From NCBI RefSeq assembly GCF_051903065.1, contig NZ_CP178438.1: DNA of 64,000 nt. One strand, 5' to 3'. This DNA comes from Escherichia coli (GTDB lineage Bacteria; Pseudomonadota; Gammaproteobacteria; Enterobacterales; Enterobacteriaceae). The translations under genes were made by a program, and so were the position numbers. Every line of letters starts with the position of its first letter. Positions within the stretch are counted from its first letter, which is position 1. Positions 6,604 to 23,617 of this stretch are shown here, in pieces. The notes beneath the pieces are model-generated. The model was not told where the DNA came from, did not search any database, and was given only the letters and a program-made list of their open reading frames with translations.

Positions 6604-6657
6604 CGAAAACGGCCCTGCATTCGCATGCAAGGCCGTGAATTATTACGAAAACAGAAA

Positions 6658-7284
<627 letters not shown>

Positions 7285-7296
7285 CTAACTTCGCTT

Positions 7297-7325
7297 ATTA
7301 TGGGGATCAGTTTCAGGGTTTCAAG
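7297..7325 (-). promoter_or_regulatory. sigma32 heat-shock promoter of grpE
   Basis: On the grpE strand reads CTTGAAA - 13 nt - CCCCATAAT, matching the sigma32 -35/-10 consensus about 45 nt upstream of the ATG. Confidence 0.75.
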
Positions 7326-7373
7326 GGAAGCACTCACATTGTCATCAATCTTCGCAACAAGGACCTCGGAAAA

Positions 7374-8252
7374 ATGAATAATCATTTCAAGTGTATTGGC
7401 ATTGTGGGACACCCACGGCACCCTACTGCACTGACAACACATGAAATGCTCTACCGCTGGCTGTGCACAAAAGGTTACGAGGTCATCGTTGAGCAACAAA
7501 TCGCTCACGAACTGCAACTGAAGAATGTGAAAACTGGCACGCTCGCGGAGATTGGGCAACTGGCTGATCTCGCGGTAGTCGTTGGTGGCGACGGTAATAT
7601 GCTGGGCGCGGCACGCACACTCGCCCGTTACGATATTAAAATTATTGGAATCAACCGTGGCAACCTGGGTTTCCTGACTGACCTTGACCCCGATAACGCC
7701 CAGCAACAGTTAGCCGATGTGCTGGAAGGCCACTACATCAGCGAGAAACGTTTTTTGCTGGAAGCGCAAGTCTGTCAGCAAGATTGCCAGAAACGCATCA
7801 GCACCGCGATAAATGAAGTGGTACTTCATCCAGGCAAAGTGGCGCATATGATAGAGTTCGAAGTGTATATCGACGAGATCTTTGCGTTTTCTCAGCGATC
7901 TGATGGGCTAATTATTTCGACGCCAACAGGCTCCACCGCCTATTCCCTCTCTGCGGGCGGTCCTATTCTGACCCCCTCTCTGGATGCGATTACCCTGGTG
8001 CCCATGTTCCCGCATACGTTGTCAGCACGACCACTGGTCATAAACAGCAGCAGCACGATCCGTCTGCGTTTTTCGCATCGCCGTAACGACCTGGAAATCA
8101 GTTGCGACAGCCAGATAGCACTGCCGATTCAGGAAGGTGAAGATGTCCTGATTCGTCGCTGTGATTACCATCTGAATCTGATTCATCCGAAAGATTACAG
8201 TTATTTCAATATATTAAGCACCAAGCTCGGCTGGTCAAAAAAATTATTCTAA
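7374..8252 (+). CDS. nadK: NAD kinase
   Basis: 292-aa ORF with GGDGN motif ([14 protein letters not shown]). Confidence 0.93.
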
Positions 8253-12135: not shown

Positions 12136-12498
12136 GGGGCTGATTCTGGATTCGACGGGATTTGCGAAACCCAAGGTGCATGCCGAGGGGCGGTTGGCCT
12201 CGTAAAAAGCCGCAAAAAATAGTCGCAAACGACGAAAACTACGCTTTAGCAGCTTAATAACCTGCTTAGAGCCCTCTCTCCCTAGCCTCCGCTCTTAGGA
12301 CGGGGATCAAGAGAGGTCAAACCCAAAAGAGATCGCGTGGAAGCCCTGCCTGGGGTTGAAGCGTTAAAACTTAATCAGGCTAGTTTGTTAGTGGCGTGTC
12401 CGTCCGCAGCTGGCAAGCGAATGTAAAGACTGACTAAGCATGTAGTACCGAGGATGTAGGAATTTCGGACGCGGGTTCAACTCCCGCCAGCTCCACCA
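12136..12498 (+). ncRNA. ssrA: tmRNA (SsrA), intact 363 nt
   Basis: Starts GGGGCTGATTCTGGATTCGACGGG, contains the tag-peptide reading frame region and ends ...GGTTCAACTCCCGCCAGCTCCACCA. Confidence 0.95.
12454..12498. repeat. Prophage attachment-site repeat, ssrA-proximal copy (45 bp)
   Basis: ATGTAGGAATTTCGGACGCGGGTTCAACTCCCGCCAGCTCCACCA is repeated exactly at 45935-45979. Confidence 0.9.
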
Positions 12499-13417: not shown

Positions 13418-14518
13418 TTATTCCATTTCAAGATCATCAATCTTCACTTCGAGTTCAATACTGGTTGTAAAACCGTTATCCGGGCTGACGGTATGTGTCA
13501 GAGTCGTAATGGTCCATTCCGCATCATCTATCGGCTGTTTAAAGCCACTGACTTTCACTGGCATTTCCGTGTAGAGATCTGCCCGACCTTCCGCCAGTTG
13601 TAGCGAGAATGACGCAACGCCGCGTTGCAGGCGTTCCCACTGCATTTTCGCTGCCCGTTCAGCGTTGCTCCGGTTGGCATAAGTGCGATTAAGTACCAGC
13701 ACGTTTTCATCCGTACCCACCAGGTAATCGCCCTGCTTTGCTTCCGGCTCTTTCTTCTGCTTTGCGGTCCTGCGCTTACGCTTCACCGTGGTGCTTTCTT
13801 TCTTCGCGGGTTCGCGGGTATGCAACCAACTGGCAATTACGCCCGTATAGGCTCCGCGATCTGCCAGGGTAAAGCGGTGACTGTCGCCGTCCTTGCGTGT
13901 GATAGTGATCACCGGCAGAGGTTTACCGCTGGCGCTTTTGCCCTGTCCCTGCCGGATGAATAACAGATTGCCATTTTTCACCGACGCAATAGCACCGTAC
14001 TGGCGCGCCAGCCGCATCAGAAAACTGCCGTCACTCTCATTGGTCTGGTCTATATGTTCCACGGGCTTATCCGACAGGTCTTTACCCAGTGCCATCTTCA
14101 GCTTGTGCCGCGCGGCTATTTCCTTCACCACTTCCCCGACGGTGGTCTTGTGCCACGACTTTTCACGACGGGTATTCAGCGTTTCCCGAAAATCAGCACT
14201 TCGCGCCCGGATAGTCAGGCGGTCCGGTGCGCCAGTGTGTTCAATCTCGTCCACCGTGAATGCCCCTTTAGGGAAAAGCGGCTGCCCCTTCCAGCCCAGC
14301 GCCAGCGTAATGACCGCACCACGGCGCGGCAGCACGATTTTTCCGTCGGCGTCGTCCAGCTCCAGATCAAGCTGGTCCGCTTCAAAGCCCCGATTGTCCG
14401 TCAGAGTCAAACTCATCAGGCGGTTATCCAGCACAGTGGTGATATCCCTGCCCTCAATACTGATGCTGAATGCGGGAGTTTTGTTGCCTTTGTTAAGCAG
14501 TTCAGAGCTGAAATTCAC
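13418..14518 (-). CDS. Tail protein D (late control gene D family)
   Basis: 366-aa ORF at the P2 D position; overlaps the U stop. Confidence 0.85.
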   Translation of the reverse strand: MNFSSELLNKGNKTPAFSISIEGRDITTVLDNRLMSLTLTDNRGFEADQLDLELDDADGKIVLPRRGAVITLALGWKGQPLFPKGAFTVDEIEHTGAPDRLTIRARSADFRETLNTRREKSWHKTTVGEVVKEIAARHKLKMALGKDLSDKPVEHIDQTNESDGSFLMRLARQYGAIASVKNGNLLFIRQGQGKSASGKPLPVITITRKDGDSHRFTLADRGAYTGVIASWLHTREPAKKESTTVKRKRRTAKQKKEPEAKQGDYLVGTDENVLVLNRTYANRSNAERAAKMQWERLQRGVASFSLQLAEGRADLYTEMPVKVSGFKQPIDDAEWTITTLTHTVSPDNGFTTSIELEVKIDDLEME

Positions 14519-15000
14519 GACAGCAGCCCTCCCACCGTTTTACTGATATCACTTAAGGCAGATGTTGCCGTGTCCTGCAGATTATTCAGTTGCGTACTGA
14601 GATCACCGAACATATCGGACAGGGATTCATCCACCCGTTTGAGCGACAGGGTGAACTCAATCCGGCGCGGCATACCGTCGCGGAAAAACTCCGTTTTAGT
14701 CAGATTCAGTCCCTCAATCACATACATGCCGTAAATCGTGCCGCTGCCTTCAATCAGGGGCCATGCTTTTCCCTGTTCTGCCATCTGCTCCAGAGCCAGC
14801 AACGACAGCCTGCCGCCCGTTATCTCCGGCATAAGAACACCAGAAAGCGTCAGCATGTCGTTGTCCGGTCCCAGAAACTGCGTGGACGGACGACGGTTTA
14901 CCCGGCTGTTTGCCGCATGTCGCCAGCTGCGTTGATACTGCAGTTCCTGATACGGAACGGTGCGCAGCATAAACACGTACAATCCCAGCACCATCATCAT
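14515..15000 (-). CDS. Tail protein U
   Basis: 161-aa ORF between T and D. Confidence 0.8.
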   Translation of the reverse strand: MMMVLGLYVFMLRTVPYQELQYQRSWRHAANSRVNRRPSTQFLGPDNDMLTLSGVLMPEITGGRLSLLALEQMAEQGKAWPLIEGSGTIYGMYVIEGLNLTKTEFFRDGMPRRIEFTLSLKRVDESLSDMFGDLSTQLNNLQDTATSALSDISKTVGGLLS

Positions 15001-18000
15001 GCGTCGTATCCCCCCTGATCGCTGTAGTTACTCCTGGCTTTTGCCTTCAGCCTGCGTTCACGTTCATCAAGCTGGCGTGCCACCTCCCGCGCAATATCCT
15101 GCGCACTTTGTCCTGGCTGCGTCTGAATGATGATCTGCGTCGGTGCCTCAATCCGGTGAACGGGCGGCACAGTGGCTGCACGACTCACCATCGCTTCGCC
15201 GCCTTTCGCGGGAAGTGCCAAAGGATGCAACGGTGGAAGCTCTGCAGGCGCGGCAGCAACGCCCATCATTCCGGCAACAACGGCAGCCAGTGCAGCTGTA
15301 TTTCTCCGGCTGGTCACATTTGCCGGGCCGTTAACAATTTCCGGCCCGTTTTCACCGACGATGCCAAACTGCCCGCGCGGGATATAGCCGCCGCTGTCAT
15401 ACATCCCCGCAAAGCCATATCCCCATGACGGAAAACCACCCGGTGGCATCATCACTTTACCGTCTGCATTCACCGTCGCAGGTTGCTGACGCGTCACTCT
15501 TTCCGGCAGTTTCGCCTTTGCAGCCTCTTTACTGACAATGCCGAGTTTCTCCAGCAACCAGGAAACGCCGGATTTCAGGGAGTCCAGCGGATGCATGACC
15601 ATATTCAGCCCTTCCGCCAGTGCCTCCCCGAATCGTCGCCCCATTGCCGCTGCGCTCTGCAGTTCGGCAGAGGTCGACTTAACGGGCGTCAGCAGATCAG
15701 TAAACCAGCCCCACAACGCCTGCACTTTGTCGCCAATCCACTGAAACACAGGCTTAAGTGGTTCGAATGCTGCACTGATGGGACCTGCCGCCGCTTTGAA
15801 TCCTTCCACCACACCAGCGAGAAATGCGGTGATGGGTTGCCAGTATTTCCAGACAACCAGCGCCACGCCCGCCAGTGCAGTAACCACAAGACCTATCGGA
15901 CTGAGCAGAGCACCTAACAGACCAGATATGGCATACAGGGCAACGCGCAGCATCGCCAGCGGACCAGATGCAAGCACACGAAGCACCGCGCCTGCGGCAG
16001 CCAGTCCACCGCGCAGTACCGCCAGAGGATTCATAAACATCACAGCAACCGCACGTAAACCGGATAATCCAGACCGCAATAGTGCAACCGGCGCACCTGC
16101 TACAGTTTTCAGGACATTTCCCGTCAGTGATGCCGTACGGCGCAAAGACGACAACGGCGCAGTAAGTAAACCCGCTGCGTTACCCGATGAAGCAAGCCCG
16201 CGTCGCAGCACTGCCAGTGGTGCGCCTGCCAGCCAGGACAAAGCGTTGCTGGTTCGGGTTACTGCTGCCGTAACGGAAGGTAACGTTTTGATACCCAGCA
16301 CAGAGAGTCCCAGACGGATGACTGCCAGCGGCCCCAGCACTGCAGCCAGCGCCACCGCTAAGGTGCCGAGGCCCACGGTAACGGCAGCCACCACTGCGGC
16401 TACTTTCATCAGAGTGCCCGTCAGTTCCGGGTTAGCTTCCACCCAGCGACGCAACGCCCCCGTGACGCTTTTCACCGTGTACAGAATATCCATCAGCGGC
16501 TGGCGCAGCGTTTCGCCCAGGCTGCTGAAGGTGTTCTGTGCTCCGGTTTTGACCAGCAACCACTGAGCAGAAAGTGAGTCTTTGTTGATGTCGGATTCTT
16601 TCTGCATGGAGCCGAGCGCATCATTGCCCGCAGTCAGTTTTAGCTGGCGCTGTAGTTCCGGCAGGTTGTTTGCCAGTTTCGCCGCGTCATCGCCAAACTC
16701 TTTACCAAACAACATGGTCATGGCAGACAGACGCTTATCCTGCGGCAGTGCGTTCACCTTCTCCAGCACACGCTGGATAGTTCCCATCGCATCCTTCGTC
16801 ATCTGCTTTTCAATCACTTCAGGATTGAGTTTCAGCAGATTCATCCCTTCAAAGAAACTCTTGCTTTGCATGGTGGCAATGGACAATTCACGCACCATCG
16901 CGTTTGCTGCACTGGCTGCAACCTCCGGCGCAGCGCCCAGTGTCAGAAAGGTGGAACCCAGTGCCGCAGCTTTACGATAATCCAAACGGTCAGCCACACC
17001 ACCCAGGCGTTGCATGACATCAATAATGTCCGCCCCTTTCGACATGGCGTTATCATCCAGATAGTTCAGCGCATCACCGAGCTGTTCAATATTGCGGGTA
17101 GGGATTTTGTAGAGCTGGGCGATTTTCCCCAGACTTTCTGACAGTTCATCCGCTGGCAGCTCAAAGGCTGTTGCCGCCTTTGCTGCCGTACTGGCGAAGG
17201 CCAGCAGGTCACGTTTCTGGTCCTCCCAGCTGTCGTCAGGGTTTGCGACGTTCATGCGCGCCCCACCTTCAACCAGTGCAGCGAAATCCACCGCACCGTT
17301 TTCCATCGGCAACTGTTCGCTGGCAGCCTTGATGGCATCCTGCATTTCATAAAAACGTGCAGTGGGGTTGCCATTATCGTCACGCAGACCATTGACCTGC
17401 TTTGCCACACCTTTCATGGCATCTTCCATGCTGGTATAGATTTTTACTGCCGCCATCACTGGTGCGCCCATTGCCAGCCCTGCAGCCGTGGTGGTGGCTC
17501 CGGCACCTGCAATACGATCACGCACCTCCAGCGAACGGGCATAACTGGCACGCGCTGCATTCATCCTGCGCTGAGCTTCCCCCAGTCGCTTCAGCCGCGC
17601 CTCCTGTTTCGAAAGTTCCTGGTTATAACGTGATGTTTCACGGGCTAAACGGGCAGTTGCTCCCGCATCATCTTTCGCAGAAATTCCCGCCCGGTACAGT
17701 TCAGCACGCACAAGCGCCGTTTGCTTCTGCAAATATTTTTGTTGTTCTTCCAGGCGTTGGACTGCCAGCGTTTGCCGACCTAAAGCCACAAGATGCCTTT
17801 GTGATGGTTGCTCCATCGCCTCCAGCTCAGAGCTAAGCAAATTAGCCTTCTGTCTGGCATAGTTCAGCCTGTCGCCTAACTTCTTGTTATCAGCCTGCAG
17901 CTTGCGAAATTTTTCCAGGCTGTTACCCGCCTGATTGAGTTGCTTTAATGCGTCACGGGAGTTTCTGATTGCGCCAGCCAGCTCTTTCGAACTGGCCTGT

Positions 18001-18074
18001 GCAGCACGGAATGGGCGGGTGAGTTTGTCAACCGCATTAAGAATGACCTGCAGGCGCAGGTTGTTATCACTCAT
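14997..18074 (-). CDS. Tail tape-measure protein (gpT-like)
   Basis: 1025-aa Ala-rich protein with coiled-coil N-terminal part and hydrophobic central repeats. Confidence 0.9.
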   Translation of the reverse strand: MSDNNLRLQVILNAVDKLTRPFRAAQASSKELAGAIRNSRDALKQLNQAGNSLEKFRKLQADNKKLGDRLNYARQKANLLSSELEAMEQPSQRHLVALGRQTLAVQRLEEQQKYLQKQTALVRAELYRAGISAKDDAGATARLARETSRYNQELSKQEARLKRLGEAQRRMNAARASYARSLEVRDRIAGAGATTTAAGLAMGAPVMAAVKIYTSMEDAMKGVAKQVNGLRDDNGNPTARFYEMQDAIKAASEQLPMENGAVDFAALVEGGARMNVANPDDSWEDQKRDLLAFASTAAKAATAFELPADELSESLGKIAQLYKIPTRNIEQLGDALNYLDDNAMSKGADIIDVMQRLGGVADRLDYRKAAALGSTFLTLGAAPEVAASAANAMVRELSIATMQSKSFFEGMNLLKLNPEVIEKQMTKDAMGTIQRVLEKVNALPQDKRLSAMTMLFGKEFGDDAAKLANNLPELQRQLKLTAGNDALGSMQKESDINKDSLSAQWLLVKTGAQNTFSSLGETLRQPLMDILYTVKSVTGALRRWVEANPELTGTLMKVAAVVAAVTVGLGTLAVALAAVLGPLAVIRLGLSVLGIKTLPSVTAAVTRTSNALSWLAGAPLAVLRRGLASSGNAAGLLTAPLSSLRRTASLTGNVLKTVAGAPVALLRSGLSGLRAVAVMFMNPLAVLRGGLAAAGAVLRVLASGPLAMLRVALYAISGLLGALLSPIGLVVTALAGVALVVWKYWQPITAFLAGVVEGFKAAAGPISAAFEPLKPVFQWIGDKVQALWGWFTDLLTPVKSTSAELQSAAAMGRRFGEALAEGLNMVMHPLDSLKSGVSWLLEKLGIVSKEAAKAKLPERVTRQQPATVNADGKVMMPPGGFPSWGYGFAGMYDSGGYIPRGQFGIVGENGPEIVNGPANVTSRRNTAALAAVVAGMMGVAAAPAELPPLHPLALPAKGGEAMVSRAATVPPVHRIEAPTQIIIQTQPGQSAQDIAREVARQLDERERRLKAKARSNYSDQGGYDA

Positions 18075-18200
18075 CGTTGGCCCCGCATCTCTGAATCGCT
18101 TTATACCGCCATTCCAGCACTTCGGTCAGCGGCATAACGTCAGTAACGGATGGCGGCCAGTGAAAAATGGTGGCGATATCTGCCACCAGATCGTCAACCG

Positions 18201-18503
18201 TCAGGCTGTCGGTAAACCGGCAAGTACCGACTTCTTCAACAAAAAAGTGACAACCTCAACCGACATAGCGGTGAGATCTGCCGGGTCCATCTCTGCAATT
18301 TCCTGTGCAGTCAGTGCCGGGCTGGAGATGCGGGGGATCACGGTCATCATCGCGTTCACATCCATATCCATAATGGCCTGCAGGCGTGTACCGCGCAGTG
18401 CACCGGACTGCGGTTTACGCAGCACAATTTCGGTGATTTCCGTTTTACCGCGCTTGATAGGGGTATCCAGTTGAATAGTCTTTTCAGTCTGCTTATCGCT
18501 CAT
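18201..18503 (-). CDS. Tail assembly chaperone E (E+E' extension by -1 frameshift)
   Basis: 100-aa ORF ending ...TFLLKKSVLAGLPTA; T_TTT_TTG heptamer in frame near its 3' end. Confidence 0.8.
   Translation of the reverse strand: MSDKQTEKTIQLDTPIKRGKTEITEIVLRKPQSGALRGTRLQAIMDMDVNAMMTVIPRISSPALTAQEIAEMDPADLTAMSVEVVTFLLKKSVLAGLPTA
18240..18246 (-). other. Programmed -1 frameshift slippery site (TTTTTTG) for the E+E' product
   Basis: Minus-strand TTTTTTG falls in the X_XXY_YYZ frame of E (ACT TTT TTG); the downstream -1 frame stays open toward the T start. Confidence 0.7.
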
Positions 18504-18557
18504 TTTTCTGTCCTGTAAATTGGGTTCTGGCGCGGCATTCCGCGCCGTTCAGATACA

Positions 18558-19073
18558 TCAGAGGCCGAGTGCGTTGCGGTGCGCTTCCATCAGGTCCACA
18601 CCGTCCACAATTTCCACCATGTTGATAAGGTCCACTTCATAGAGCACCTCACCATTGATAGTCAGCTTCGCGTAGCTGTTGGTACTGGTCACTTTGGTGG
18701 TGTTGCTTTCGCCCGTCTTCCACTCGCCGGAATCCACTTCTTTGTGACGTCCACGCACCACAAGCTCCACGGCCTGCACTTCTCCGGTATCGTCACGCTG
18801 GATAGAGCCGGTGAAGCGCAACTGGATGCCATCCACCGTGGCTTTGCCCATCTGTTTAAACAGCAGCAGTTCAGTACCACCAATGGAAAATTCTGTGTCC
18901 AGCGCACTGTCATCAAGCCCCAGATCCACATCCACTGCACCCGGCATTCCGCCGCCGCGATACTTCTCATATTTGCGGGTGAATTTCGGCAGCGTCAGCG
19001 ACTCAACGATCCCCTGCCAGTTGTTCCCGTCATTAAACAGGTTCAGGTGTTTTAATTTGCGTGGTAAAGCCAT
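18558..19073 (-). CDS. Tail tube protein FII
   Basis: 171-aa ORF between FI and E. Confidence 0.88.
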   Translation of the reverse strand: MALPRKLKHLNLFNDGNNWQGIVESLTLPKFTRKYEKYRGGGMPGAVDVDLGLDDSALDTEFSIGGTELLLFKQMGKATVDGIQLRFTGSIQRDDTGEVQAVELVVRGRHKEVDSGEWKTGESNTTKVTSTNSYAKLTINGEVLYEVDLINMVEIVDGVDLMEAHRNALGL

Positions 19074-19082
19074 GTTGTCCCC

Positions 19083-20255
19083 TTACGCGCTGACCTGGCT
19101 GGAGAAATTCACCAGGTACTGATCGGTGATGCGCTGACGCAGCATCAGGTTTTCAAGTGGCGGCACTGGCGTGTAGTCGTAGTCGATGGTGAGTTTTCCG
19201 GCTTTCAGCGTGTCTTTGTCGTTCACCGACTCATCCAGCCAGCAATCACCACCAATGAGATAGCCCTGACTGACCAGGCTGCGCATTTTGGCGCGGATAC
19301 CCTCGATAATGTCGCGGGCCAGCGACGGATTCAGCGGTTTATCCACCGCCCACATGTGCGCTTCTGCCATCGTGTCCGTCAGCACCTGCGCCGTGCGGGT
19401 GTAGTTTTCGAAGGCAAAGAGCGGGTCATCACTCAGGCAGCGGGAACCCCAGAAGCGAAAACCGTCTTTGCGGATAAGGGTGGTGACGTCGTTCTGGTTC
19501 AGCAGTCCCGCATCGGTTGCCGGGTCCTGCAGATCCCAGAACACATCAGCAGAAATTCCGGTGACACCGTTAACGCCCACGTTGGACAGGCTTTTGTGCC
19601 ATCCGGTCTGCTCGTCAATTTTGGCGCGCAGACCAAGCGCACGGGCGGTGGCATAAGCCGTTGCTTCGGCATTCAGCACCGTGTCCCAGCCAGTAAAGTC
19701 GGGCCAGATCAGCATTCCTTCGCGCTGGCTGAAGTTTTCACGGTAAGTGATCGCCTCCTGTACCGTCTTGCAGCCATACGCTGACAGGTAGGCAAACCCA
19801 CGCAGGCTTTGCGCCACGCTCAGCAACTCAGTAGCAACGGCTTTGTTATCGTGACCTGGCACGCCGAGAATGCGCGGTTTAACGCCGAGCTGTGTCTGGG
19901 CAGATAACAGGGCTTTCATGCCTGTTTTTTTACCTTCAGCAGTCACTGCGCCGATGATATTGGTCGTGGTTTCTTCTTCCGTTTCACCCTGCGGCACACG
20001 CACAACAACGGTCACTGGTTTTGCCTGGTCAGCGATGGCATCCAGCGAACGGGCCAGCGTGCCGGACTCACCCGCTTTACCGCTGGCAGTCAGCACATCA
20101 GTGATCAGCACGGGTTTATTAAGAGGAAACATTTTTGCATCGGCATCATCGCCCGTGCAGACCATACCCACGATGGCGGTGCTCACCGTGGTAATGGATC
20201 GGGTGCCTTCGTTGACTTCAGCAACGCGCACCCCGTGGTGGTAATCCTGAGCCAT
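19083..20255 (-). CDS. Contractile tail sheath protein FI
   Basis: 390-aa ORF, size and position of P2 FI. Confidence 0.9.
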
Positions 20256-20397: not shown

Positions 20398-20964
20398 TCA
20401 GGGCGATTCATTGCTCTCATTCGCCGGAAATTTTCTATAAATGGTAGAAACGCCCACATCAAAAATCAGTGCAATACGCTGTCTTGATTCTCCGGCCTCG
20501 AGTAAACGTCCAATCTGTGCCCACTGTTCGGTGGTCAACTTAGGACGGCGTCCACCTACTCTGCCTTTGGCACGAGCTGCAGCCAGCCCTGCTCTGGTAC
20601 GTTCAACTATCAGTTCACGTTCCATTTCAGCCAGAGCCCCCATGACGTGAAAAAAGAAACGGCCCATTGGGGTACTGGTATCAATACTGTCAGTCAGGCT
20701 TCGGAAATTCACACCACGCTGGCGCAACTCTTCTATCAGCGTAACAAGATGCCGCATACTGCGCCCCAGTCTATCCAGCTTCCAGACAACCAGCGTGTCT
20801 CCTGCCGATAGTGTCCTGAGCAGTTTTTTAAGCCCCGGTCTGTCGGACTTAGTGCCACTGATTTTATCCTCAAAAATCCGCTCACATCCCGCGCAGTTCA
20901 GTGCATTACGTTGCAAATCGGTGTTCTGGTCATTTGTTGACACGCGTACATAGCCAATAAGCAT
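20398..20964 (-). CDS. Serine DNA invertase (Hin/Gin/Cin/Pin family)
   Basis: Resolvase N-terminal catalytic motif (GYVRVSTNDQ) and C-terminal HTH; start placed at MLIGYVRVS; adjacent to the invertible tail-fibre segment. Confidence 0.9.
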   Translation of the reverse strand: MLIGYVRVSTNDQNTDLQRNALNCAGCERIFEDKISGTKSDRPGLKKLLRTLSAGDTLVVWKLDRLGRSMRHLVTLIEELRQRGVNFRSLTDSIDTSTPMGRFFFHVMGALAEMERELIVERTRAGLAAARAKGRVGGRRPKLTTEQWAQIGRLLEAGESRQRIALIFDVGVSTIYRKFPANESNESP

Positions 20965-20991
20965 GATCAATCCCCTGAATAAAAACCGGGG

Positions 20992-21468
20992 ATGATGCCA
21001 GTTAGCCATTATCTCTGCATTTTCTTAAACGTTGGTTTGGGAGAAGGTTCGGCATTACCCGTTGGTGTGCCTGTTCCGTGGCCTTCTGCAATACCGCCTA
21101 CTGGCTGGCTGAAATGTAACGGTGCGGCTTTTTCTGCCGTTGAATATCCTAAACTGGCGAGGGTTTACCCGACAAATAAATTACCTGATTTACGCGGTGA
21201 GTTTATTCGTGGCTGGGATGATGGGCGTGGAGTGGATAGTGGGCGCGCGTTATTATCAACTCAAACAGATGAATTTAAATCACATAGTCATTATTTCGAA
21301 AGAACATGGGCACAAACTGGATTTGATACAACAGGTGGATATTATCTTTTAGCCGCTGATGTTTCTGGCTCAGTAAATCAACAGAGATCCGATAGCACTA
21401 ACTCGGTGGGGGGGAGAGAATCTCGCCCTCGTAATATTGCATTTAACTATATTGTGAGAGCTGTGTAA
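20992..21468 (+). CDS. Alternative tail-fibre C-terminal variable segment (silent orientation)
   Basis: Open frame without its own start context; encodes ...LNVGLGEG... paralleling ...LAYLGLGEA... in H at the crossover site; followed by a tail-fibre assembly gene. Confidence 0.65.
   Translation: MMPVSHYLCIFLNVGLGEGSALPVGVPVPWPSAIPPTGWLKCNGAAFSAVEYPKLARVYPTNKLPDLRGEFIRGWDDGRGVDSGRALLSTQTDEFKSHSHYFERTWAQTGFDTTGGYYLLAADVSGSVNQQRSDSTNSVGGRESRPRNIAFNYIVRAV
21022..21045. repeat. Invertase crossover site (gix/cix-like), invertase-proximal
   Basis: TTCTTAAACGTTGGTTTGGGAGAA; its reverse complement matches 22555-22578 over about 17 nt. Confidence 0.7.
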
Positions 21469-22073
21469 TGGATAATGCTGTATTAAATAGCGAACATATT
21501 GCTACGAAGGCTGGAAATGTTACTGTTTATAACTTTGACGGTGAAACGCGAGAGTATATTTCCCCATCTATTGAATATATTGCCGTTGGTGTCGGTATTC
21601 CGGCATATTCATGTTTAGATGCTCCTGCCACACGTAAAGATGGTTATGCTATTTGCCGTTCTGCAGGCTTAAACTCATGGGAATATATACCAGACCATCG
21701 CAGTGAAATTGTCTATAGCACTGAAACAGGAGAATCAAAAGAAATCACAGCTCTGGGGGATTACCCTGAAAATACAACCATTATCGCCCCATTAACGCCA
21801 TACGATAAATGGGATGGTGAGAAATGGGTGACGGATACCGAGGCACAGCGTAGCGCCGCAGTAGACGCGGCAGAAGCACAGCGCCAGTCGCTGATTGATG
21901 CTGCTATGGCTTCCATTAGCCTGCTTCAACTGAAATTACAGGCCGGACGGAAGCTGACGCAAGCAGAAACAACCCGACTAAACGCCGTGCTGGATTACAT
22001 TGACGCGGTGATGGCAACGGATACCAGCAACGCGCCGGGGGTTATCTGGCCAGTTCCACCTGAGATGGTTTAA
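21468..22073 (+). CDS. Tail-fibre assembly chaperone for the alternative segment
   Basis: 201-aa ORF directly coupled to the alternative fibre segment inside the invertible region. Confidence 0.7.
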   Translation: MDNAVLNSEHIATKAGNVTVYNFDGETREYISPSIEYIAVGVGIPAYSCLDAPATRKDGYAICRSAGLNSWEYIPDHRSEIVYSTETGESKEITALGDYPENTTIIAPLTPYDKWDGEKWVTDTEAQRSAAVDAAEAQRQSLIDAAMASISLLQLKLQAGRKLTQAETTRLNAVLDYIDAVMATDTSNAPGVIWPVPPEMV

Positions 22074-22329
22074 TCTCAATCAGAATGGGTTCGCCCTTCT
22101 CGTTAACAGATATTTCCATTCCTTCAGGGATTTCAGATGCAGTAAAAAACCAGTTATCTTCTGGTAATTCAACAGCCCCGGTCACGTCATGAAGACCGGG
22201 GATTACTTCAGTCAAAGTAACAGGATTAAACAGGCGCACAATAAACTCTCCAAGAAAAAGCACTTGTTGATGGTCTTCCGTCGTACATCTGGCAGCGGAC
22301 ATAAAAACCGGTATTAGTGACCTGGTCAT
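22042..22329 (-). CDS. Possible short or degenerate tail-fibre assembly protein for the expressed orientation
   Basis: ORF downstream of H on the same strand, but overlapping the H 3' end in another frame; true start unclear. Confidence 0.3.
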   Translation of the reverse strand: MTRSLIPVFMSAARCTTEDHQQVLFLGEFIVRLFNPVTLTEVIPGLHDVTGAVELPEDNWFFTASEIPEGMEISVNEKGEPILIEIKPSQVELAR

Positions 22330-23617
22330 CCACGATCATTGAAACGTGAACGTTATTAGATGTGCTCCCGTAATCCGTTCTTATTCTTTCCGCTATGCTG
22401 ATAAAACGTGAAAGCTTAGGTAGCGCAATTGGATAAACGACTTTAGCCAGTCCATTATCATTAGAACCACCCGTTCCAAAGACTTCTATTGCACCATCTG
22501 ACCAGCGTATCCATGCACCATTGGCATTAGCTCCTCGTTGAATGACATATCTGGCTTCTCCCAAACCAAGGTATGCGAGAAGACCAGCTACATCCTTTCC
22601 ACTCAAATTGGTAAGCGTATTGTCCAGCGGTTGTTTACCTGCCAGCGCATTAAGCATTGTCGTGGCAAAGTTCGGATCATTCCCCAGTGCCGCCGCCAGT
22701 TCGTTCAGTGTATCCAGTGCCGCAGGTGCAGAACCCACCATTGCTGCAATCGCTGATTTCACAAAAGCCGTGGTGGCAATCTGTGTATTGTTGACCGACT
22801 GTGCCGCAGTAGGTGCGGTTGGCGTTCCGGTGAGTGCCGGACTCGACAGCGGCGCTTTCAGTGCCAGTGCATTGTTAATGGTGGTACTGAATTTCGGATC
22901 ATTGTTAATGGCTGCGGCTATTTCTTTCAGCGTGTCCAGCGTGGCTGGCGCACCATTAATAAGAGCCGTCAGAGCCGCCTGAACAAACGCGGTGGTCGCA
23001 ATCTGCGTGGTGTTATTCCCTGCTGCTGGCGTTGGCGCTTTGGGTGTCCCGGTAAACGTCGGACTTTCTTTGGGTGCATACTGTGAATGCGGGTCCGGTG
23101 CGGCAAGATGTTTTGCCATCTGATCATCCGCGTACACCTTCAGCTCCAGTGCCTTGTCATCCACATACTTGCGGGTTGCCAGCACTACAGCAGGGTCGAT
23201 TTTCAGGGTGATATTGTCCGTGCTGCTGGTAATCAGCACCATGCGCACGGTCTGAGTGCGCCCGCTACCTTCAGCCAGTTGCGGCTTATAGCTTTCCGGG
23301 CAGTTGCCCACGGCAATCAATGCCTCGGACTCATCAAACAGGCCCACTTCACGAATCCACCAACCGCCCTCGTTTTCAGGGATCACCTGTTCGGCAATAA
23401 TCTGGCTGCTGTTCTGCGGGTCGATATAGAGCATATTCAGCGCAGCCCGGCGTTTCTCATTTACCAGTGCAGTCTGCTTTGAGTCTGGCGTTGGCAATAC
23501 TCCGCCGCCATCGCCGACCGCCATATGGGTAATTTTTAGCGGCACACCGAGCGCGGCGGCGCTGGCAAGTTTCGCCGCGCCAATATCCGTCAGCAGGGTA
23601 TAAAATTTTGTGCTCAT
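22226..23617 (-). CDS. Tail fibre protein H (constant N-terminal part plus currently expressed variable C-terminus)
   Basis: 463-aa ORF with internal roughly 56-aa tandem repeat (NTTQIATTAFV...). Confidence 0.88.
   Translation of the reverse strand: MSTKFYTLLTDIGAAKLASAAALGVPLKITHMAVGDGGGVLPTPDSKQTALVNEKRRAALNMLYIDPQNSSQIIAEQVIPENEGGWWIREVGLFDESEALIAVGNCPESYKPQLAEGSGRTQTVRMVLITSSTDNITLKIDPAVVLATRKYVDDKALELKVYADDQMAKHLAAPDPHSQYAPKESPTFTGTPKAPTPAAGNNTTQIATTAFVQAALTALINGAPATLDTLKEIAAAINNDPKFSTTINNALALKAPLSSPALTGTPTAPTAAQSVNNTQIATTAFVKSAIAAMVGSAPAALDTLNELAAALGNDPNFATTMLNALAGKQPLDNTLTNLSGKDVAGLLAYLGLGEARYVIQRGANANGAWIRWSDGAIEVFGTGGSNDNGLAKVVYPIALPKLSRFISIAERIRTDYGSTSNNVHVSMIVDDQVTNTGFYVRCQMYDGRPSTSAFSWRVYCAPV
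22555..22578. repeat. Invertase crossover site inside tail-fibre gene H
   Basis: TTCTCCCAAACCAAGGTATGCGAG; inverted-repeat partner of 21022-21045; coincides with the LGLGE coding position of H. Confidence 0.65.

What the first reader, a model, noticed from the sequence alone, without database searches (positions are those of the whole stretch)
18201..18503. Conserved -1 programmed frameshift site in the tail chaperone gene
A T_TTT_TTG heptamer (18240-18246, minus strand) lies in the X_XXY_YYZ register near the 3' end of E, with the -1 frame open toward the tape-measure gene, as in P2 E/E' and lambda G/GT.
Basis: partly seen in the sequence, partly recalled or inferred. Interest (0 to 1): 0.3.

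Follow-up and report, generated by a model that had tools for sequence, protein, structure and literature searches.

The report
P2-type tail chaperone frameshift site
This is the well-known "slippery" site at which ribosomes shift back one base near the end of a P2-like prophage's tail-chaperone gene to make a second, longer tail-assembly protein; it is real and conserved, and already described for phage P2 and its relatives.

Summary
TTTTTTG lies at 18246-18240 on the minus strand, in the register T_TTT_TTG of the 100-aa ORF 18503-18201. The -1 frame stays open from there to a TGA at 18069-18067, which overlaps the ATG (18074) of the 1025-aa tape-measure gene.

The ORF is a Phage_TAC_7 tail chaperone. 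The -1 extension is a full-length Pfam Phage_P2_GpE match. The gene order is that of the P2 FI-FII-E-E'-T-U-D operon.

The predicted 145-aa fusion aligns without gaps across the junction with P2 gpE+E' (47% identity, E 6e-50). The P2 record annotates the frameshift site at the homologous position.

All 16 diverged homologues I examined keep an in-register slippery heptamer at the same alignment position. Fourteen are T_TTT_TTN and two are non-homopolymeric.

The heptamer alone is not rarer than chance. The case rests on its register, its position, the homology of the extension and its conservation.

The window carries a Fels-2-like prophage beside ssrA. About 1,000 E. coli genomes have near-identical copies, and the Fels-2 record already notes the slippage.

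A weak downstream hairpin and an upstream Shine-Dalgarno-like motif are possible modulators but remain unproven.

Verdict: already known, low interest.

The parts
18201..18503 (-). Gene E: tail assembly chaperone, zero-frame product of 100 aa
   Evidence: ORF list and translation. Pfam PF10109 Phage_TAC_7 E 1e-18. phrog_103 'tail protein' E 2.7e-42. 100% identical to the 'tail assembly protein' of Escherichia phage Cartapus.
18240..18246 (-). Slippery heptamer T_TTT_TTG, the proposed site of the -1 ribosomal frameshift
   Evidence: In register with E. Same heptamer at the same alignment column as the annotated P2 frameshift site. Conserved as T_TTT_TTN in 14 of 16 diverged homologues.
18067..18240 (-). 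E' : -1 frame extension of 57 codons plus TGA, read only after the shift
   Evidence: Translation. Pfam PF06528 Phage_P2_GpE full length, E 2e-17. phrog_1756 covers the extension from the junction. The stop overlaps the T start.
18067..18503 (-). Composite E+E' coding region; predicted 145-aa fusion ...VEVVTFL|VEEVGTCRF...GANDE
   Evidence: Gap-free BLASTP alignment with P2 gpE+E' across the junction, 47% identity over 139 aa, E 6e-50.
18067..18186 (-). The 39-codon ORF from an internal GTG that RefSeq/PGAP annotates as a separate 'GpE family phage tail protein'; most likely an artefact of not modelling the frameshift
   Evidence: ORF list. Annotation in E. coli genomes and phages. Homologues with W or I at this position have no start codon there.
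18208..18231 (-). Candidate 7-bp hairpin GUCGGUA-N10-UACCGAC, 8 nt after the heptamer; a possible weak stimulator, unproven
   Evidence: Fold. One compensatory U-A to C-G change in the Klebsiella-phage clade. Absent in YenM_42.18, P2 and 186, and not thermodynamically unusual (z -0.65).
18253..18257 (-). Shine-Dalgarno-like GAGGU, 6 nt upstream of the heptamer; a possible modulator, unproven
   Evidence: Anti-SD duplex energy falls in the best 5% of positions within E, here and in 8 of 16 homologues. It coincides with conserved (E/K)-V-V codons.
14997..18074 (-). Gene T: tail tape measure protein (1025 aa); its ATG overlaps the E' stop
   Evidence: TIGR01760 E 1.7e-93 and PF10145.
18558..19073 (-). 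Gene FII: tail tube protein, immediately upstream of E
   Evidence: PF04985 Phage_tube E 8.8e-60.
19083..20255 (-). Gene FI: tail sheath protein, first gene of the operon
   Evidence: PF04984, PF17482 and PF22671.
13418..15000 (-). Genes U (14515-15000) and D (13418-14518), completing the FI-FII-E-E'-T-U-D order
   Evidence: PF06995 Phage_P2_GpU E 9.5e-44 and PF05954 Phage_GPD E 1.9e-27.

Best explanation
The site is the programmed -1 ribosomal frameshift signal of the tail assembly chaperone gene pair E/E' of a P2-like (Fels-2-like) prophage.

Most ribosomes translate E to its stop at 18201 and make the 100-aa chaperone. A minority slip back one base on U_UUU_UUG: the P-site tRNA-Phe re-pairs UUU to UUU, and the A-site tRNA-Leu re-pairs UUG to UUU. 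They then continue in the -1 frame from GUU (18240) for 57 more codons to the UGA at 18069-18067. This yields a 145-aa protein E+E' that shares its N-terminal 88 residues with E.

By analogy with P2 gpE/gpE+E' and lambda gpG/gpGT, both proteins bind the tape-measure protein T. The E' domain of the rare long form recruits the tube protein to start tail polymerisation. Neither protein ends up in the virion, and the frameshift efficiency sets their ratio.

Shown here: the register, the open frame, the homology of both halves, the synteny and the conservation of the signal. Inferred: that slippage occurs in this prophage, its efficiency, the tRNA details and the protein partners.
For: - **Register and open frame.** The heptamer is in register and the -1 frame is open to the T start.
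- **Protein families.** E matches PF10109 and the extension matches PF06528 over its full length. phrog_1756 matches from the junction residue onward.
- **Synteny.** The gene order sheath-tube-E-E'-tape measure-U-D is that of P2.
- **Match to P2.** The fusion aligns gap-free with P2 gpE+E' (47% identity, 6e-50). My reconstruction of P2 gives the published 91-aa and 142-aa products (PMC3091744). NC_001895 annotates E+E' as a joined CDS with a 'site of -1 translational frameshift' right after the same TTTTTTG.
- **Closest relative.** The Fels-2 record (85% DNA identity) notes that gpE+E' forms by translational slippage.
- **Conservation.** All 16 homologues spanning several Peduoviridae genera, a Vhmlvirus, and Zymomonas and Haematospirillum elements keep an in-register X_XXY_YYZ at the same place. 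About 0.0037 such heptamers per codon occur in this window's genes.
- **Non-homopolymeric variants.** Two homologues use G_GGA_AAG and A_AAT_TTT. These fit ribosomal slippage but not polymerase slippage.
- **Coding upstream of the GTG.** The -1 frame sequence between the heptamer and the internal GTG is conserved as protein (V-x-E-x-G...F/L-P...VDDL).
- **Literature.** The P2 -1 shift occurs at TTTTTTG and is conserved among P2-like phages (PMC3091744, PMC3931495, both citing Christie et al. 2002 and Xu et al. 2004).
Against: - No experiment on this prophage exists, so the evidence is comparative only.
- The heptamer string itself is as frequent as chance predicts.
- E' has an in-frame GTG at 18186 that annotation pipelines use as a start. 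Its Shine-Dalgarno match (-5.9 kcal/mol) is no worse than those of E (-4.0) or T (-5.0), so RBS strength does not rule out independent initiation.
- No strong stimulatory RNA structure is present.
- The homologues are related by descent, so 16 of 16 is not 16 independent observations.
Confidence: 0.9

Rival explanations
1. E' is an independent small gene translated from the internal GTG at 18186, as RefSeq/PGAP and several phage records annotate it. On this view the heptamer is just a Phe-Leu coding accident.
For: A GTG-initiated 39-codon ORF exists. It is annotated as 'GpE family phage tail protein' in about 1,000 E. coli genomes and many phages. Pfam PF06528 spans exactly this fragment. The SD match upstream of the GTG is weak but comparable to those of E and T.
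Against: In homologues the residue at this position is W (VP58.5) or I (Mannheimia, Mae-JY29, 3LV2017). There is no conserved start codon, while the slippery heptamer is always kept. The -1 frame is conserved as protein upstream of the GTG, and phrog_1756 matches from the junction. For P2, published work reports no ribosome-binding site for E' and treats it as a frameshift extension of E (PMC3931495, PMC3091744, citing Christie 2002).
Confidence: 0.04
2. The same E+E' fusion is made by transcriptional slippage rather than by the ribosome. RNA polymerase would insert one extra U on the T6 run, giving a fraction of mRNAs in which E and E' are in frame.
For: The site is a homopolymeric run: T6 here, and T7 in the Klebsiella-phage clade and in Smp131 (PMC3931495). 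A one-base insertion would give nearly the same product. Nothing computed here separates the two mechanisms at this locus.
Against: From general knowledge, efficient polymerase slippage in bacteria usually needs runs of about 8-9 or more. The T-run keeps a fixed codon register in every homologue, and the Mannheimia (G_GGA_AAG) and phage 520873 (A_AAT_TTT) homologues have non-homopolymeric heptamers that only tRNA re-pairing explains. The literature treats the P2 event as translational (PMC3091744).
Confidence: 0.05
3. Chance: the heptamer and the open -1 frame are coincidental and no second product is made.
For: TTTTTTG occurs 26 times in the window against about 20 expected. In-register heptamers occur about 70 times in the window's genes.
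Against: The extension is a full-length match to a curated protein family. The heptamer is conserved at the same column across very distant relatives. The frame ends precisely at the tape-measure start.
Confidence: 0.01

Closest known systems
Bacteriophage P2 E / E+E' programmed -1 frameshift (FETUD tail operon; Christie et al. 2002, as summarised in PMC3091744 and PMC3931495; NC_001895 annotation)
   Same: Identical heptamer TTTTTTG in the same register and at the same alignment column. The -1 frame opens 9 nt upstream of it in both. The extension is 57 codons in both and ends overlapping the T start. Both halves are homologous (47% identity, gap-free). The operon order is the same.
   Different: E is 100 aa rather than 91, because the zero frame runs 14 codons past the heptamer instead of 8. 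The fusion is 145 aa rather than 142. The tape measure is 1025 aa rather than 815. The residue at the annotated E' 'start' is GTG (Val) rather than ATG. A 7-bp hairpin lies 8 nt downstream here, whereas none is reported for P2 (PMC3091744).
Fels-2 (Felsduovirus) STM2699/STM2697.1 gpE-like pair and near-identical prophages and phages (Cartapus, 4LV2017, Kp48xx, 500465-1)
   Same: 85% (Fels-2) to 97-99.5% DNA identity across the whole E-E' region. Same heptamer, same spacer and same hairpin. The Fels-2 record states that gpE+E' forms by translational slippage. The prophage here lies next to ssrA, which from memory is the Fels-2 attachment site.
   Different: Only point differences. For example, the window has GUCGGUA where most copies have GUCGGUG, which gives Thr or Ala in E' and is silent in E.
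Lambda gpG/gpGT and the general tail-assembly-chaperone frameshift of tailed phages (Levin et al. 1993; Xu, Hendrix and Duda 2004, via PMC5009743)
   Same: Two overlapping ORFs between the major tail gene and the tape-measure gene. [quoted passage not shown] The proposed roles are the same: both bind the tape measure, and the extension recruits the tail tube subunit (PMC5009743).
   Different: There is no sequence similarity to lambda G/T (stated in PMC3931495). From memory, lambda uses a different heptamer, G_GGA_AAG. P2-like phages have contractile tails with a sheath.

Membership tests
P2-type E/E+E' tail chaperone frameshift | Two overlapping ORFs located between the tail tube gene and the tape-measure gene | tested here: met
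   FII 18558-19073, E 18201-18503, E' 18067-18240, T 14997-18074, all on the minus strand. Family assignments.
P2-type E/E+E' tail chaperone frameshift | Slippery heptamer X_XXY_YYZ (TTTTTTG in P2), in register with the upstream ORF and inside the overlap with the -1 ORF | tested here: met
   T_TTT_TTG at 18246-18240, inside the 18-codon overlap 18255-18201. Same column as the P2 site.
P2-type E/E+E' tail chaperone frameshift | The upstream ORF is homologous to gpE (tail assembly chaperone) | tested here: met
   PF10109 E 1e-18. tblastn to P2 E gives 43.7% identity, E 5e-17.
P2-type E/E+E' tail chaperone frameshift | The -1 extension is homologous to P2 E' | tested here: met
   PF06528, 37/37 profile positions, 62.8 bits against a cut-off of 23. 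Colinear BLASTP with P2 gpE+E'. phrog_1756 covers residues 85-145.
P2-type E/E+E' tail chaperone frameshift | The downstream ORF has no translation start of its own | tested here: inconclusive
   A GTG exists at 18186 with a weak SD match (-5.9 kcal/mol, a value reached by about 30-44% of positions in the operon). The starts of E and T are equally weak. Several homologues have no start codon at that position.
P2-type E/E+E' tail chaperone frameshift | The signal is conserved across relatives that have diverged in sequence | tested here: met
   16 of 16 homologues keep an in-register heptamer, 14 of them T_TTT_TTN.
P2-type E/E+E' tail chaperone frameshift | A fusion protein is actually produced at a low fixed frequency and is essential for tail assembly | not testable with these tools
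   This needs protein analysis or genetics. It is reported for P2 (Christie et al. 2002, cited in PMC3091744 and PMC3931495) but not for this prophage.
Stimulated -1 PRF (dnaX or IS-element type, with a 3' hairpin and a 5' Shine-Dalgarno stimulator) | A stable, conserved RNA structure 5-9 nt downstream of the heptamer | tested here: inconclusive
   A 7-bp hairpin lies 8 nt downstream (about -9 kcal/mol). Its z-score is only -0.65. One compensatory change occurs in one clade. The hairpin is absent in YenM_42.18, P2 and 186. No Rfam family matches.
Stimulated -1 PRF (dnaX or IS-element type, with a 3' hairpin and a 5' Shine-Dalgarno stimulator) | An SD-like element upstream of the heptamer at a stimulatory spacing | tested here: inconclusive
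   GAGGU lies at 18257-18253, within the best 5% of anti-SD matches in E in 8 of 16 homologues. The spacing is only 6 nt, shorter than the roughly 10-14 nt that I recall as stimulatory for -1 shifts. The motif also encodes conserved residues.

The most novel reading that the evidence does not exclude
In the Fels-2-like and Klebsiella-phage clade, the E:E+E' ratio may be tuned by two cis elements that P2 is reported to lack or that have not been described. One is a 7-bp hairpin 8 nt downstream of the heptamer (18231-18208), maintained by a compensatory U-A to C-G change. The other is an internal Shine-Dalgarno-like GAGGU(G) 5-6 nt upstream. If so, this clade would be a stimulated variant of the otherwise structure-free P2 frameshift.
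Probability: 0.15. Interest if true: 0.3.

Novelty: already known. Interest (0 to 1): 0.1.

Why it matters
The site matters mainly for annotation. RefSeq/PGAP and many phage records split this gene into a 100-aa 'tail assembly protein' and a spurious 39-aa 'GpE family phage tail protein', instead of E plus a frameshifted 145-aa E+E'. The Pfam GpE family is modelled on the truncated fragment. Recognising the site gives the correct proteome of a prophage carried by roughly a fifth of complete E. coli genomes (988 of 5,426). Biologically it is one more instance of the conserved tail-chaperone frameshift that sets the ratio of two assembly proteins, and it opens no new question.

Tried and rejected
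- **Heptamer frequency.** The frequency of the bare string as evidence: rejected, 26 observed against about 20 expected.
- **Downstream folding.** Thermodynamic support for a stimulatory structure. The 45-nt downstream segment is not unusual (z -0.65). The 80-nt segment scores z -2.6, but only because of a distal hairpin about 52 nt away in the ADIATIF codons, too far to act on the slipping ribosome. The P2, phiCTX and KS5 segments are unremarkable.
- **Hairpin covariation.** One pair shows a double change, confined to one clade. The control shuffles and slides are only mildly beaten. The hairpin is absent in three more distant homologues. I treat it as weak.
- **Viral-contig scan.** A scan with the E protein, meant to gather diversity, returned 80 loci all 100% identical in protein. 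It was useful only to show how common the element is and to list point variants.
- **Shine-Dalgarno strength.** Using SD strength to rule out the internal GTG start was uninformative, because the real E and T starts are equally weak.
- **NCBIfam.** No model matched E or E+E'.
- **PDB sequence search.** No solved relative was found.
- **Rfam.** No relevant family matched.
- **Christie et al. 2002 (PMC135442).** The paper is not held in the library, so its results are cited second-hand.
- **Other in-register heptamers with long -1 frames.** GGGGGGA at 15015-15009 and TTTTTTC at 7266-7272 are explained by ordinary overlapping downstream genes.

Full report
**1. Observation**

The minus-strand sequence reads ...GTT GAG GTT GTC AC[T TTT TTG] TTG AAG AAG TCG..., with the heptamer at 18246-18240. 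ORF E runs 18503-18201 and encodes 100 aa. Position 18246 is the third base of codon 86, so the heptamer is in the X_XXY_YYZ register, 14 codons before the E stop.

The -1 frame read from the heptamer gives FFVEEVGTCRFTDSLTVDDLVADIATIFHWPPSVTDVMPLTEVLEWRYKAIQRCGANDE and then TGA at 18069-18067. That stop overlaps the ATG (18074) of the next gene. Upstream, the -1 frame is closed by a TGA 9 nt before the heptamer. The stretch in which a -1 shift could give the full extension is therefore only 18 codons, and the heptamer lies in it.

**2. Is it more than chance?**

The bare string is not unusual: 26 copies in the window against 20.2 +/- 4.2 in shuffles. Context is what counts.

Across 68 putative genes (18,730 codons) there are 70 in-register X_XXY_YYZ heptamers. 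Only two lie within 30 codons of a stop and open into a -1 frame that continues at least 30 codons beyond it. One is this site. The other, GGGGGGA at 15015-15009, is the Shine-Dalgarno sequence of the overlapping next gene U (anti-SD duplex -11.9 kcal/mol).

**3. What the genes are**

| Gene | Window coordinates (minus strand) | Family evidence |
|---|---|---|
| FI, tail sheath | 19083-20255 | PF04984, PF17482 |
| FII, tail tube | 18558-19073 | PF04985, 8.8e-60 |
| E, tail chaperone | 18201-18503 | PF10109 Phage_TAC_7, 1e-18 |
| E', -1 extension | 18067-18240 | PF06528 Phage_P2_GpE, 37/37 positions, 2e-17, 62.8 bits vs cut-off 23 |
| T, tape measure | 14997-18074 | TIGR01760, 1.7e-93 |
| U | 14515-15000 | PF06995 |
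| D | 13418-14518 | PF05954 |

This is the P2 FI-FII-E-E'-T-U-D operon. In PHROGs, phrog_1756 matches residues 85-145 of the predicted fusion, starting at the junction rather than at the internal GTG.

**4. Relatives**

The 561-bp region is 97-99.5% identical to copies in 988 of 5,426 complete E. coli genomes. It is similarly close to phages Cartapus, 4LV2017, the Kp48xx series and 500465-1, and 85% identical to Fels-2. The window holds a whole P2-like prophage next to the tmRNA gene (12136-12498). A related E. coli prophage shows the full P2-like gene set.

The Fels-2 record already says that gpE+E' forms 'if translational slippage occurs'. P2 itself (NC_001895) annotates E+E' as a two-piece CDS, with a 'site of -1 translational frameshift' feature directly after its TTTTTTG.

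**5. Comparative test**

I fetched 16 homologues down to about 31% protein identity: P2, 186, phiCTX, Burkholderia KS5, Shewanella M16-3, Vibrio VP58.5, Mannheimia 587AP1, a Zymomonas plasmid-prophage, a Haematospirillum element, Microcystis phage Mae-JY29, Klebsiella phages from several genera, Yersinia YenM_42.18 and Escherichia phage 520873.

- In every one, an in-register slippery heptamer lies in the E/-1 overlap.
- Fourteen are T_TTT_TTN (G, C or T at the last position). Mannheimia has G_GGA_AAG, which is noted in its own record. Phage 520873 has A_AAT_TTT.
- Shifting at these sites always yields an extension carrying the motif (V/M/I)AD(I/V)AxxFHWxP...EL..WRE.A.
- My reconstruction gives 91 aa and 142 aa for P2, matching the published sizes (PMC3091744).
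- The window's 145-aa fusion aligns with P2 gpE+E' without a gap across the junction (47% identity, 6e-50).

**6. Mechanism**

The best explanation is simultaneous-slippage -1 ribosomal frameshifting on U_UUU_UUG. It would give a majority product E (100 aa) and a minority product E+E' (145 aa, junction ...VVTFL|VEEVG...).

By analogy with lambda gpG/gpGT (PMC5009743) and P2, both forms bind the tape-measure protein. The extension recruits the tube subunit, and the ratio of the two is fixed by shift efficiency. The anatomy and homology are shown here. The occurrence and efficiency of the shift, and the binding partners in this prophage, are inferred.

**7. Rivals**

- **Independent initiation at the GTG (18186), as PGAP annotates**. 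Homologues have W or I at that position and so lack a start codon there. The -1 frame is also conserved as protein upstream of it. For P2, secondary sources report no ribosome-binding site for E' (PMC3931495). SD strength did not discriminate.
- **Transcriptional slippage on the T6 run.** I cannot exclude this computationally. It is disfavoured by the short run, by the fixed register, and by the two non-homopolymeric heptamers among the homologues.
- **Chance.** This is excluded by sections 3 to 5.

**8. Possible modulators**

A 7-bp hairpin, GUCGGUA-N10-UACCGAC (18231-18208), starts 8 nt after the heptamer.

- It is kept in the Fels-2-like and Klebsiella-phage clades, with one compensatory U-A to C-G change.
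- It is not thermodynamically exceptional (z -0.65).
- It is absent from YenM_42.18, P2 and 186.
- It overlaps two constrained reading frames.
- Published screens found no structure in P2, KS5, KS14 or KL3 (PMC3091744).

An SD-like GAGGU(G) lies 5-6 nt upstream. It is among the best anti-SD matches within E in 8 of 16 homologues. However, it coincides with conserved (E/K)-V-V codons, and its spacing is shorter than what I recall as stimulatory for -1 shifts. I treat both elements as untested. Rfam has no matching family.

**9. Novelty and verdict**

This is the already-described P2-type E/E+E' frameshift, in a very common Fels-2-like E. coli prophage, so it is not novel. Its practical value is for annotation: the 39-aa 'GpE family phage tail protein' CDS in RefSeq is best read as the C-terminal part of a frameshifted E+E'. 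Interest is low, about 0.1.

Noticed in passing
window 12136-12498 (+): The tmRNA gene (ssrA, tag ANDENYALAA) lies just beyond the D/ogr end of the prophage. The P2-like prophage (about 12.5-44 kb of the window) therefore appears to be integrated at ssrA, which from memory is also the Fels-2 attachment site. I did not look for att repeats or the exact boundaries.
   Followed up: partly
window 20398-23617: A Hin/Cin-type recombinase ORF (20398-21009, minus) sits next to oppositely oriented tail-fibre and tail-fibre-assembly ORFs. These are flanked by imperfect 27-nt inverted repeats (21020-21046 and 22555-22581, 81% complementary). This looks like an invertible host-range segment.
   Followed up: partly
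window 18168-18188 (-): A terminator-like hairpin, UGGUGGC-AGAUAUC-GCCACCA followed by UUUUUCACUG, lies inside the E' coding frame at the conserved VADIATIF codons, between the frameshift site and gene T. It is present in the Fels-2-like clade but not in P2. It could be a coding by-product or a weak attenuator ahead of T.
   Followed up: partly
window 18529-18546 (-): An all-GC 7-bp hairpin, GGCGCGG-AAUG-CCGCGCC, lies in the FII-E intergenic gap and has no U-tract. It is in the same position as the annotated partial terminator tI of phage 186 and a predicted terminator in the Mannheimia phage. It may lower E-T-U-D expression relative to sheath and tube.
   Followed up: no
window 18067-18186 (-) and RefSeq/GenBank records L001, L003, L104: Annotation pipelines call E' as a separate 39-aa 'GpE family phage tail protein' starting at an internal GTG. 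Pfam PF06528 covers exactly that fragment. The frameshifted E+E' product is missing from almost all of these records.
   Followed up: yes
window 15009-15015 (-): An in-register G_GGG_GGA lies five codons before the stop of the tape-measure gene, and its -1 frame is gene U. It is the Shine-Dalgarno sequence of U (ATG at 15000), so it is not a second recoding site.
   Followed up: yes
window 14997-18074 (-): The tape-measure protein is 1025 aa, against 815 aa in P2 and 935 aa in Fels-2 (sizes from the coordinates). This predicts a proportionally longer tail in this prophage lineage.
   Followed up: no
window 7266-7272 (+): An in-register T_TTT_TTC lies 36 codons before the stop of the chromosomal ORF 6625-7377. 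Its -1 frame is that of the overlapping next ORF (7374-8252). This is most likely a coincidence of two overlapping genes. I did not identify the genes.
   Followed up: no
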